Assembly: GCF_003790525.1 (NCBI RefSeq)
Contig: NZ_CP033635.1
Length of the DNA stretch: 64,000 bases
Strand: one strand, 5' to 3'
DNA from: Escherichia coli
GTDB lineage: Bacteria > Pseudomonadota > Gammaproteobacteria > Enterobacterales > Enterobacteriaceae
The notes under the pieces were generated by a model. That model did no database searches, had not been told where the DNA came from, and saw only the letters and a list, made by a program, of their open reading frames with translations. Shown here piece after piece: positions 14,595 to 15,408 of the stretch. Positions within the stretch are counted from its first letter, which is position 1. The number at the start of each line of letters is the position of its first letter. Made by a program: the position numbers and the translations under genes.

Positions 14595-14780
14595 GTCCTT
14601 TCCGGCATGTGGACCCGTTACGGGGCGTCGACCTCGCGCGTTTTCACTATTTATGAAAATTTTTCGGGATCCATGTCCGGTTTCTCTGCAAGTTAACCAT
14701 ATGAAAAATATAAAAACATGCTTTCCATGAACCGGACATGCGCAAAAAACAGACACTAAAACCGGACATCGAACCAGTTA
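14595..14780 (+). other. Lambda-type cos site, copy A: cosQ-like GGGTCCTTTCCGG, cosN GGGGCGTCGACCT and a cosB with three CCGGACAT repeats
   Basis: Near-identity to the lambda cos junction (…GGGTCCTTTCCGG…GTTACG|GGGCGGCGACCTCGCGGGTTTTCGCTATTTATGAAAATTTTCCGG…) recalled from memory. ATGTCCGG at ~14672, CCGGACAT at ~14732 and ~14762. Confidence 0.65.
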
Positions 14781-14837
14781 ACCGAAAGTGTGCACAAATC
14801 ACATTCATTGCTGCGAGTGATTAACAAGTTATCGGCT

Positions 14838-15272
14838 TTACTGTTCTGTATCGGCTGATTGCTCCATGCTGGCACGGCGAACGCTTACGGCATGACGCCA
14901 CCCAGCCAGAAAGCCAGCCATTTTATTTCGTGCCTTGCTCACATCTTCCGGTGAATAGCCGTAAATATGCAAACCTTCATCAAATCGATGTTCTGTTTCT
15001 TCACTGGAGTACTCGTCACGCTCAGATGAAAGCAGCCTCGCAAACATAATTTTTTCCAGCGCACTGGTTTCTACGTGATATCCGATGGTCTGAAGATGGC
15101 TTTTACCTGAATACCAAAGCAATGTATGCCCGATGTGATAACCGCCAGACTTTCCGCGATCCGCATTAAGATACGGCATCCCCTGTTTGGTCCATGCGCG
15201 AATAGTGGTTCTGTTAACCTTGAAATGTTCAGCTATTTCCTGCTGACTTACAAAACAAGCTTTATCAATCAT
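14838..15272 (-). CDS. Nu1-type terminase small subunit (HTH N-terminal domain), 144 aa
   Basis: …QQEIAEHFKVNRTTIRAWTKQGMPYLNADRGKSGGYHIGHTLLWY follows the lambda Nu1 N-terminal pattern (KKQLADIFGASIRTIQNWQEQGMPVL…GKGNEVLYDSAAVIKWY). Confidence 0.65.
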   Translation of the reverse strand: MIDKACFVSQQEIAEHFKVNRTTIRAWTKQGMPYLNADRGKSGGYHIGHTLLWYSGKSHLQTIGYHVETSALEKIMFARLLSSERDEYSSEETEHRFDEGLHIYGYSPEDVSKARNKMAGFLAGWRHAVSVRRASMEQSADTEQ

Positions 15273-15335
15273 AATGTTACCTTAACTGCATGGTTAAATA
15301 TCAATCAAGTGGTGGTGGTGTCACCTTCACGGAAA

Positions 15336-15408
15336 AACGTCATAAATAGCGAAAACGTGCGAGGTCGACGCCCCGTAACGGGTCCACATGCCGGAAAGGA
15401 CCCGCAAA
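15336..15408 (-). other. Lambda-type cosQ-cosN, copy B. Inverted relative to copy A, immediately upstream of the Nu1-like gene, without the CCGGACAT R-site array.
   Basis: The reverse complement reads GGGTCCTTTCCGGCATGTGGACCCGTTACGGGGCGTCGACCTCGCACGTTTTCGCTATTTATGA. About 70 bp are near-identical to copy A, then the sequence diverges. Confidence 0.6.

What the first reader, a model, noticed from the sequence alone, without database searches (positions are those of the whole stretch)
14595..15408. Two lambda-type cosQ-cosN copies in inverted orientation bracket the Nu1-like small terminase gene, and only one has a cosB R-site array
Copy A (plus strand, 14595-14780) reads GGGTCCTTTCCGGCATGTGGACCCGTTACG-GGGGCGTCGACCT-CGCGCGTTTTCACTATTTATGAAAATTTTTCGG. 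It is followed by ATGTCCGG, CCGGACAT and CCGGACAT, a cosB-like arrangement with one R site inverted relative to two. Apart from a few substitutions this is the lambda cosQ/cosN/cosB junction as I recall it. Copy B (minus strand, 15336-15408) repeats about 70 bp of cosQ-cosN almost exactly and then diverges to a TTTTTCCGTGAAGG stretch with no R sites. It sits about 70 bp upstream of the Nu1-like gene start. So terS (14838-15272, minus strand) lies between two convergent cos cleavage sites about 740 bp apart, and the R-site array lies 3' of terS. This differs from the canonical cosQ-cosN-cosB-Nu1 order. Possible explanations are an invertible terS cassette (recombination between the 70-bp inverted repeats would flip the terS-plus-cosB block so that terS follows the copy-A cosQ-cosN), alternative packaging directions, or a decoy cos that sequesters helper terminase.
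Basis: seen in the sequence. Interest (0 to 1): 0.75.

Follow-up and report, generated by a model that had tools for sequence, protein, structure and literature searches.

The report
Satellite island's two known cos sites

Summary
A 78-nt inverted repeat (91% match; 14592-14669 and 15327-15404) brackets a 144-aa gene. Each arm is a lambda-like cosQ-cosN.

It is not new. The window carries an 11.2-kb EcCICFT073-family phage-inducible chromosomal island (PICI) inserted in tqsA. The gene is rppA, not terS. The two copies are the published cos1 and cos2 (Fillol-Salom 2018, 2019).

Copy B ("no R sites") is cos1. It is essential, recognised by Rpp-TerS, and in the canonical order cosQ-cosN-cosB-rpp. 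Copy A, with the R-like array, is cos2, which is dispensable with lambda or phi80 as helper.

Three results were not in the papers I read:
- cos2's cosB is about 99% identical to the cosB of PhiR12-type lambdoid phages, where it sits upstream of Nu1. Such prophages occur in 1141 of 5426 complete E. coli genomes.
- cos2 exists in at least two phage-derived cosB types on the same island backbone.
- The rppA segment is inverted in one E. coli clone (15 genomes plus one metagenome contig, zero SNPs) and native everywhere else (about 100 loci).

Inversion has therefore happened, but it is not a switch. My best reading is that cos2 serves a second class of helper phage. That part is inferred, not shown.

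The parts
12366..12391 (+). Left att core of the island: 26-nt direct repeat AATTAACTACACCATTAACTACACCG, whose partner is at 23567-23592. The island sits inside tqsA.
   Evidence: direct repeat D1; tqsA fragments annotated on both sides in strains PKF11 and 042
14277..14558 (-). c1504-like 93-aa ORF of unknown function, immediately outside copy A.
   Evidence: no Pfam family
14592..14669 (+). Copy A arm, the cosQ-cosN-I2-like part of the published cos2. cosN is at 14623-14634 (GGGCGTCGACCT).
14670..14769 (+). cosB of cos2 (type I). R-like boxes: ATGTCCGG at 14673-14680 (forward), CCGGACAT at 14732-14739 and 14762-14769 (reverse). About 99% identical to the cosB of phage PhiR12_1, where it lies upstream of Nu1.
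14838..15272 (-). rppA (redirecting phage packaging protein), 144 aa. A mimic of the TerS DNA-binding domain. Residues R21, T22, L51 and F121 are conserved.
15192..15331 (-). cosB of cos1, the Rpp-TerS-dependent one. The extent is that of the segment used in the published phi80 chimera, which overlaps the 5' end of rppA. The proposed R3-PICI, AGGTGACACCACCACCAC, is at 15309-15326.
   Evidence: primer sequences; Murialdo & Feiss proposal; conservation across RppA, RppB and Klebsiella loci
15327..15404 (-). Copy B arm, the cosQ-cosN part of the published cos1. cosN is at 15373-15362.
15407..15433 (-). Terminator-like hairpin (GGCCGGAGAAATCCGGC followed by a T run) closing the upstream capsid/decoration operon just before cos1. 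A second copy is at 17323-17349.
   Evidence: read from the sequence; repeat D3. The terminator scan did not list it.
15503..16905 (-). Island-encoded head-decoration (lambda D-like) and major capsid (lambda E-like) genes. They serve as the flank markers for deciding the orientation of the module.

Best explanation
The region is the packaging module of an EcCICFT073-family phage-inducible chromosomal island (PICI): rppA flanked by the two published cos sites.

Shown experimentally for the 95%-identical CFT073 element. RppA heterodimerises with the helper phage's small terminase (TerS of lambda or phi80). This blocks recognition of the phage cosB. It redirects the terminase to the island's own cosB, which lies between cosN of cos1 (copy B here) and the start of rppA. 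The helper's TerL then cuts at the lambda-like cosN and packages island concatemers. cos2 (copy A) supports only low-level, Rpp-independent transfer by lambda or phi80, and deleting it increases transfer.

Shown here by sequence. cos2 is a near-exact copy of the complete cosQ-cosN-cosB of a different, very common lambdoid prophage lineage (PhiR12-type). That lineage's Nu1 has a different N-terminal DNA-binding domain from lambda's. cos2 occurs in at least two interchangeable phage-derived cosB types on the same island backbone.

Inferred. cos2 lets helpers of that second TerS class package the island directly, without Rpp, which broadens the helper range. The inverted orientation stops a terminase that started at one cos from terminating at the other, because termination needs cosQ ahead of cosN in the direction of travel. 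A by-product of the inverted repeat is occasional sequence exchange between the arms and, rarely, inversion of the rppA block.
For: Identity of the element:
- 95% nucleotide identity to CFT073 and 99.9% to strain PKF11, with the gene set int, alpA, repA, ssb, perC, capsid, decoration and att repeats.
- Rpp matches PDB 6HLK RppC at E = 4e-32 and is 96% identical to RppA.

Assignment of cos1 and cos2: sequences in Fig. S1A and the chimera primers of PMC6739421. Functional data.

cos2 is a phage cos:
- Window 14592-14769 matches phages PhiR12_1 to PhiR12_5 at 94%. The cosB part has 1 mismatch in about 110 nt, and in the phage it lies 49 nt upstream of Nu1 and terminase A.
- PhiR12 Nu1 shares only its C-terminal half with lambda Nu1 (46% identity, E = 9e-27).
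- The same cosB plus Nu1 is present in 1141 of 5426 complete E. coli genomes, including HM670, which also carries the island.
- A second cos2 cosB type (GGTTGTTGT / ACAACAACC / GGTTGTTGT) is found upstream of Nu1-TerL in IMG/VR phage contigs, with all three boxes and their spacing conserved.
- The type I cosB2 is 99-100% identical in 15 of the 16 type I loci compared (96% in L009), while the adjacent c1504 protein is only 77-89% identical. This argues for selection on a non-coding segment.
- cos1's cosB has no phage match but is conserved in RppA, RppB and Klebsiella Rpp loci.
- The two arms of an island always share the same cosQ/cosN class, including a second class in RppB islands.
Against: - No experiment has tested cos2 with a PhiR12-type helper. 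The helper-range function is inference.
- With lambda and phi80, cos2 is a net cost: deleting it raises transfer.
- In the window's cos2 the similarity to the phage stops at the third R-like box, omitting the phage's last forward-oriented box (CATGACCGGTTT). cos2 could therefore be a weakened site.
- Klebsiella Rpp islands manage with one cos.
- I could not measure whether islands co-occur with matching prophages more often than chance.
Confidence: 0.8

Rival explanations
1. Programmed invertible cassette: recombination between the 78-nt arms regularly flips the rppA-plus-cosB block as a switch of packaging direction or specificity.
For: A flipped form exists. In strain WP4-S17-ESBL-08 and 14 other complete genomes, the identical RppA gene lies on the opposite strand to all other island genes. 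The switch point lies inside the identical core of the arms.
Against: - All flipped genomes examined are one clone. Three genomes from Japan, Thailand and Australia and one metagenome contig show 0 SNPs over 12.6-19.7 kb, including chromosomal flanks. The flipped junction is 100% identical in all 15.
- About 100 other loci are native. Four CFT073 assemblies all agree.
- No invertase or recombinase gene lies next to the module.
- Inversion swaps which flank each cosB faces but does not change what a concatemer packages.
Confidence: 0.04
2. cos2 is a decoy. It titrates or misdirects helper terminase, contributing to phage interference rather than to island transfer.
For: cos2 is a faithful copy of a common prophage's cos, so it would compete for that phage's terminase. 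Deleting it raises island transfer by lambda, so it does engage terminase unproductively with non-cognate helpers.
Against: Published interference with lambda and phi80 is fully explained by RppA: deleting rppA restores plaquing. cos2 on a plasmid supports transfer, and deleting both cos sites is needed to abolish island transfer, so it is a working packaging site. One extra cos per island copy is a weak sink.
Confidence: 0.12
3. cos2 is a functionally neutral leftover of recombination with helper phages (a scar), kept only because it is harmless.
For: Islands and lambdoid phages recombine readily. The module is mosaic: it is 99.4-99.75% identical between islands whose flanks are only 93-98% identical. 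Klebsiella Rpp islands lack cos2. In the window's type the last phage R box is missing.
Against: The 100-nt non-coding cosB2 is 99-100% conserved in nearly all type I loci, while neighbouring genes diverge. Two different complete phage cosB arrays occupy the same position and orientation in different islands. The arms are kept matched to cos1's cosN class. cos2 is costly with lambda, so neutrality is doubtful.
Confidence: 0.12
4. Terminase itself drives the inversion and the homogenisation of the arms. Cutting both inverted cosN sites releases a 751-bp fragment with two identical 12-nt overhangs. This fragment can re-anneal and be ligated in either orientation, or into another island.
For: Geometry: inverted cosN sites give identical overhangs on the inner fragment and identical complementary overhangs on the outer ends (sequence). 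The sequence switch in the flipped clone lies within the identical stretch that contains cosN. The rare cosN G-to-T variant is present in both arms in the window and in L026. The arm-to-arm module behaves as an exchangeable cassette.
Against: The flipped clone derives from a 042-like module whose arms share 47 nt of perfect identity. That is enough for ordinary RecA recombination, and the breakpoint cannot be placed more finely. Only one event is seen in about 100 lineages. cosQ variants also homogenise, which cutting at cosN does not explain. L014 and L016 have a cosN variant in one arm only.
Confidence: 0.08

Closest known systems
EcCICFT073 cos1 / cos2 / rppA (c1503) module (Fillol-Salom et al., ISME J 2018, PMC6092414; Mol Cell 2019, PMC6739421)
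   Same: Same gene order, same two inverted cos copies 657 nt apart, same cosB sequences on each side. RppA is 96% identical, with R21, T22, L51 and F121 conserved. About 95% nucleotide identity overall.
   Different: - The window's island sits in tqsA (as in strain 042), not beside phoQ.
- It lacks the 137-aa c1502 ORF.
- It has an extra PerC-type gene segment.
- Both arms carry the same cosQ variant and a cosN G-to-T change (GTCGAC), making the arms 91% rather than 82% complementary.
Lambda cos with Nu1 (cosQ-cosN-cosB R3/I1/R2/R1, then Nu1)
   Same: cosQ, cosN and the I2-like stretch are about 80% identical. Spacing of the cosB elements from cosN is similar. Copy B keeps the order cos then gene.
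   Different: No lambda R boxes (CGTTTCC) at either copy. The gene is a 144-aa DBD mimic without Nu1's TerL-binding C-terminus. A second, inverted cos follows the gene.
cos of PhiR12-type lambdoid phages and prophages (PV340549-PV340554; prophages in 1141 complete E. coli genomes)
   Same: Copy A is nearly base-for-base this phage's cosQ-cosN-cosB, through three R-like boxes.
   Different: In the phage it is followed by a fourth, forward-oriented box and by Nu1-A. In the island the similarity stops after the third box, and the site faces the 3' end of rppA.
Phage 21 cosB (M81255.1, annotated R3/R2/R1, core CATGTCGG), which is also the type in CFT073 prophage phi4
   Same: Copy A's boxes (ATGTCCGG) resemble 21's and occupy similar positions.
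   Different: The core differs by one inserted C. The third box is in the opposite orientation. PhiR12 Nu1's DNA-binding domain is unlike gp1 of phage 21.
Phage N15 cosB (a single R3 only), the analogy Murialdo & Feiss 2022 proposed for the PICI cos (PMC9026076)
   Same: cos1's cosB has one conserved candidate box at nt 48-65 and no I1/R2/R1.
   Different: It is recognised by an Rpp-TerS heterocomplex rather than by TerS alone. That paper does not discuss cos2.
SaPIbov4 / SaPIbov5 (staphylococcal cos-type islands)
   Same: Satellites that carry helper-type cos sites. SaPIbov4 is said to have two putative cos sites.
   Different: Unrelated sequences, and no Rpp. I did not examine them.

Membership tests
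EcCICFT073-type Gram-negative cos PICI with Rpp | Small island bounded by att repeats, with int at one end and alpA and replication genes in one direction | tested here: met
   26-nt direct repeat at 12366 and 23567, giving an 11.2-kb island. The 99.9%-identical PKF11 locus is annotated with integrase, AlpA, RepA-family helicase, SSB and PerC.
EcCICFT073-type Gram-negative cos PICI with Rpp | An rpp gene encoding a TerS-DBD mimic | tested here: met
   PDB 6HLK/6HN7 RppC at E = 4e-32. 96% identical to CFT073 RppA. R21, T22, L51 and F121 present.
EcCICFT073-type Gram-negative cos PICI with Rpp | cos1: lambda-like cosQ-cosN followed by the PICI-specific cosB (ACACCACCACCAC box) directly upstream of rpp | tested here: met
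   Copy B matches the published cos1 sequence. The box is conserved in RppA, RppB and Klebsiella loci.
EcCICFT073-type Gram-negative cos PICI with Rpp | A second cos (cos2) downstream of rpp | tested here: met
   Copy A matches the published cos2 sequence. This feature is not universal in the family: Klebsiella loci have one cos.
EcCICFT073-type Gram-negative cos PICI with Rpp | Helper-dependent induction, Rpp-TerS binding, and redirected packaging and transfer | not testable with these tools
   Known only from experiments on the CFT073 element.
Lambda-type small terminase (Nu1 / TerS) | Pfam Phage_Nu1 match above the curated threshold, covering the oligomerisation and TerL-binding C-terminal part | tested here: not met
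   16.6 bits against a cutoff of 30, residues 8-56 only. The alignment shows no C-terminal half. By contrast, PhiR12 Nu1 scores 67.9 bits.
Lambda cos site | cosQ and cosN sequences with lambda spacing | tested here: met
   66/82 and 64/82 identity; cosN 11/12.
Lambda cos site | cosB made of lambda R boxes (CGTTTCC core) in the order R3, R2, R1 | tested here: not met
   Neither copy has them. Copy A has ATGTCCGG-type boxes and copy B has the ACCACCACC box.
Programmed DNA inversion switch (Hin/Gin/Fim-type or similar) | A dedicated site-specific recombinase next to the invertible segment | tested here: not met
   No such gene is annotated between or beside the arms in CFT073, PKF11, WP4 or 042. 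The only recombinase is the island integrase, 8 kb away.
Programmed DNA inversion switch (Hin/Gin/Fim-type or similar) | Both orientations present among close relatives or within a clone | tested here: not met
   The flipped form is confined to one clone with 0 SNPs. All other lineages are native. Within-culture heterogeneity could not be tested.

The most novel reading that the evidence does not exclude
The two convergent cos sites form a dual-helper packaging module. cos1 works through Rpp capture of lambda/phi80/21-class TerS. cos2 is a verbatim, modularly exchangeable copy of the cos of a second, very common class of lambdoid prophages (PhiR12-type or the GGTTGTTGT type), whose TerS has a different DNA-binding domain. 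cos2 is kept inverted so that the two packaging routes cannot terminate at each other's site. [quoted passage not shown] A less likely extension is that terminase cutting at both sites is what inverts or exchanges the 751-bp cassette.
Probability: 0.45. Interest if true: 0.55.

Novelty: already known. Interest (0 to 1): 0.33.

Why it matters
It should be read with the roles of the two copies reversed.

What may be useful to specialists is a testable answer to why these satellites keep a second cos site. Here cos2 is almost base-identical to the packaging site of a prophage lineage found in about a fifth of complete E. coli genomes. It also comes in interchangeable phage-derived versions. If correct, these virulence-associated islands can be mobilised by more helper phages than the lambda and phi80 model suggests. 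The type of cos2 would then predict which resident prophages can spread a given island.

The single flipped clone shows that the inverted repeat is recombinogenic and that rppA tolerates being uncoupled from the upstream operon.

Tried and rejected
- Scanning GTDB species-representative genomes for Rpp relatives found nothing. Cross-species context came instead from IMG/VR and from exact-protein look-ups for Klebsiella.
- A literature search for the PhiR12 phages returned only unrelated papers.
- The type II cos2 cosB found no match beyond the shared arm in the GenBank phage collection. An exact-word scan of IMG/VR was needed to find the phages that carry it.
- cos1's cosB has no phage counterpart. 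I therefore dropped the idea that rppA plus cos1 is a recent copy of an extant phage's cos-Nu1.
- Multiple independent inversions: rejected. The 15 flipped complete genomes share a 100%-identical junction. The three I fetched in full, and the flipped metagenome contig, are one clone.
- Assembly artefact or strain-specific duplication: rejected.
- Mapping the inversion breakpoint precisely, to separate RecA recombination from terminase cut-and-rejoin: not possible. The parental-type arms share 47 identical nucleotides spanning cosQ and cosN.
- The promoter scan gives only weak consensus hits inside cosB1: GTGACA, 16-nt spacer, GATATT, at 15324-15297 on the minus strand. I do not rely on it.
- Co-occurrence of islands with matching prophages could not be computed, because search listings are capped at 60 rows.
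Full report
OBSERVATION. The sequence feature is real. The repeat finder reports inverted arms at 14592-14669 and 15327-15404: 78 nt, 91% complementary, 657 nt apart (aligned). Each arm aligns with lambda cosQ-cosN and the following I2-like stretch, at 66/82 and 64/82 identities. cosN is GGGCGTCGACCT in both copies, 11/12 to lambda. It lies at 14623-14634 on the plus strand and 15373-15362 on the minus strand. A 144-aa ORF (14838-15272, minus strand) lies between the arms.

Beside copy A the 8-mer CCGGACAT/ATGTCCGG occurs three times within 97 bp and nowhere else in the 64-kb window. Three occurrences are not unusual in themselves, but the clustering is (P about 7e-6). The boxes sit at cos nt 51-58, 110-117 and 140-147, close to the positions of lambda R3, R2 and R1.

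WHAT IT IS. The window is E. coli chromosome. The region matches strain PKF11 at 99.9% and CFT073 at 95%. In CFT073 the match falls in EcCICFT073, the prototype Gram-negative phage-inducible chromosomal island (PICI). The window's island is bounded by a 26-nt direct repeat at 12366 and 23567. It interrupts tqsA, as in strains PKF11 and 042. It carries integrase, AlpA, RepA-type helicase, SSB, PerC, lambda E-like capsid and D-like decoration genes. CFT073 has the same inverted repeat (77 nt, 82%).

The literature describes exactly this arrangement. [quoted passage not shown] Both are functional on plasmids. Deleting cos1 reduces transfer by lambda and phi80, deleting cos2 increases it, and deleting both abolishes it (PMC6092414). 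The 144-aa c1503 product is RppA. It binds the helper's TerS, blocks phage packaging, and redirects terminase to the cosB of cos1 (PMC6739421).

The window protein matches the RppC crystal structure entries 6HLK/6HN7 at E = 4e-32 and is 96% identical to CFT073 RppA. It keeps R21, T22, L51 and F121. It gives only a sub-threshold Pfam Nu1 hit, confined to the N-terminal helix-turn-helix (16.6 bits against a cutoff of 30). It is therefore a Nu1-DBD mimic, not a small terminase.

WHICH COPY IS WHICH. Figure S1A of the 2019 paper prints both sequences.
- cos1 reads ...TATTTATGACGTTTTTCCGTGAAGGTGACACCACCACC...ATGATTGATAAAGC. This is copy B, running straight into the rppA start.
- cos2 reads ...TATTTATGAAAATTTTTCGGGATCCATGTCCGG...AACCGGACATGCGC...AACCGGACAT. 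This is copy A.

The copy 'with no R sites' is the essential one. It has the canonical order cosQ-cosN-cosB-gene. Its cosB, as used in the published phi80 chimera, corresponds to window 15192-15331 and overlaps the 5' end of rppA. Murialdo and Feiss (PMC9026076) place the likely Rpp box at cos nt 48-65, which here is AGGTGACACCACCACCAC (15309-15326). I find that box conserved in RppA, RppB and Klebsiella Rpp loci.

WHAT COPY A'S ARRAY IS. This point I did not find in the papers I read. Copy A matches phages PhiR12_1 to PhiR12_5 through the third box. In the cosB part there is one mismatch in about 110 nt. In the phage this sequence lies after the lysis genes and 49 nt upstream of Nu1 and terminase A, which is the canonical cos position. 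The phage has one further forward-oriented box (CATGACCGGTTT) that the island lacks.

PhiR12 Nu1 shares lambda Nu1's C-terminal half (46% identity, E = 9e-27) but not its N-terminal DNA-binding domain. That is the pattern expected for a different cosB specificity. The boxes resemble, but are not the same as, the annotated R boxes of phage 21 (core CATGTCGG).

The original authors compared lambda, phi80 and CFT073 prophage phi4, which is 21-type. This explains why they saw 'no phage cosB'. The same cosB plus Nu1 is present in 1141 of 5426 complete E. coli genomes.

COMPARATIVE PICTURE. I held 25 IMG/VR loci, 10 metagenome contigs and several complete genomes.
- cosB1 is always next to rpp.
- cos2 comes in at least two types on the same backbone. 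Type I is as in the window. Type II has a textbook forward/reverse/forward arrangement of GGTTGTTGT boxes.
- Type II is also found in IMG/VR phage contigs about 170 nt upstream of Nu1-like and TerL genes, with all boxes and spacing conserved. The similarity ends just after R1.
- RppB islands have the same double-cos layout but use another cosQ/cosN class in both copies, the class used by those phages.
- Klebsiella Rpp islands have only the rpp-proximal cos.
- The non-coding type I cosB2 is 99-100% identical in 15 of the 16 type I loci compared (96% in L009), whereas the adjacent c1504 protein is 77-89% identical. This points to selection on cosB2.

INVERSION. I built the hypothetical flipped arrangement and searched for it. 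Fifteen complete genomes match it end to end on one strand, against 67-68 for the native form.

In strain WP4-S17-ESBL-08 the RppA gene (same protein accession as in CFT073) lies on the opposite strand to every other island gene. The nucleotide alignment shows the switch from cos2-type to cos1-type sequence inside the identical core of the arm.

However, genomes from Japan, Thailand and Australia, and one metagenome contig, are identical over 12.6-19.7 kb including chromosomal flanks. The flipped junction is 100% identical in all 15. This is one clone, and most simply one event. Every other locus I could classify is native.

The flipped module is 99.75% identical, in reverse orientation, to that of strain 042. 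In 042 both arms already carry the same cosQ variant and share 47 nt of perfect identity.

The arm table also shows exchange between arms in other lineages. Both arms carry the same cosQ variant in the window, in 042 and in several IMG/VR loci. The rare cosN G-to-T change is in both arms in the window and in L026.

So the inverted repeat is recombinogenic, and inversion is tolerated and stably inherited. There is no sign of a programmed or frequent switch, and no recombinase gene is adjacent.

MECHANISM.
- Shown, by experiments on the 95%-identical element: RppA-TerS redirects helper terminase to cos1.
- Shown here, by sequence: cos2 is a faithful, modular copy of other lambdoid phages' complete cos.
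- Inferred, about 0.45-0.5: cos2 allows Rpp-independent packaging by helpers of that TerS class.
- Inferred from established lambda biology, where termination needs cosQ upstream of cosN in the direction of translocation: the inverted orientation prevents a terminase started at one site from terminating at the other.

Rivals are a decoy role, a neutral recombination scar, and terminase cut-and-rejoin as the cause of inversion. The last is geometrically possible because the 751-bp inner fragment would carry two identical overhangs, but it cannot be distinguished from RecA recombination with these data.

VERDICT. The finding is a correct observation of an already characterised structure, with the functional roles of the two copies assigned the wrong way round. 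Novelty of the feature: already known. The phage origin and modularity of cos2, and the flipped clone, are modest additions that make an acknowledged open question testable.

Noticed in passing
window 15404-15503, compared with L001 10105-10561: The window's island lacks the 137-aa ORF (CFT073 C_RS07020, 'c1502') that lies between the cos1-side terminator and the head-decoration gene in most relatives, making it about 358 bp shorter. The same deletion is in PKF11, PKF4, CM2 and metagenome contig L086.
   Followed up: partly
window 12392-14276: An extra accessory segment between the left att site and the c1504-like gene, absent from CFT073. It holds a second PerC-family regulator gene (13467-13838, minus strand; Pfam PerC E = 8e-23) and a 96-aa ORF with no family (13884-14174, plus strand). 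The island's regular PerC gene is at 17352-17744.
   Followed up: partly
window 15503-16905: The island encodes its own lambda E-like major capsid and D-like decoration proteins. [quoted passage not shown] Their role is unexplained.
   Followed up: no
window 15407-15433 and 17323-17349: The same terminator-like hairpin (AAAAAAGCCGGATTTCTCCGGCC, read on the plus strand) occurs twice in the island, each time at the end of a minus-strand gene block. The first copy separates the capsid/decoration operon from cos1 and rppA, which implies that rppA needs its own promoter or read-through.
   Followed up: partly
L027-L029 (RppB islands); L062, L068, L069, L073 (IMG/VR phages): A second cosQ/cosN class (GGGTCCTTTCC...AAACACCGGGGGTA...CGCGCAAAAACGCGCTATTTATGA) is shared by RppB-type islands (both cos copies) and a group of lambdoid phages. 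Some RppA islands (L018-L026) combine lambda-class cosQ/cosN with these phages' cosB, a chimeric cos.
   Followed up: partly
L050-L055 (Klebsiella): Klebsiella Rpp islands are inserted inside a prophage major-capsid gene (a split Phage_cap_E next to tail genes). This is the 'helper-embedded satellite' layout already described in bioRxiv 10.1101/2022.07.18.500453. They carry only one cos.
   Followed up: no
L005 9294-10105, compared with L001 and L059: The 813-bp arm-to-arm module is 99.4-99.75% identical between islands whose flanking DNA is only 93-98% identical. This suggests that the cos-rppA-cos block moves between islands as a cassette.
   Followed up: partly
window 13841-13872: A 19-nt near-palindrome (CTTATTGTATGACAGTACT / AGTACTGTCCCACAATAAG) lies between the divergent PerC-like and 96-aa ORFs. 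It may be an operator. Not examined.
   Followed up: no
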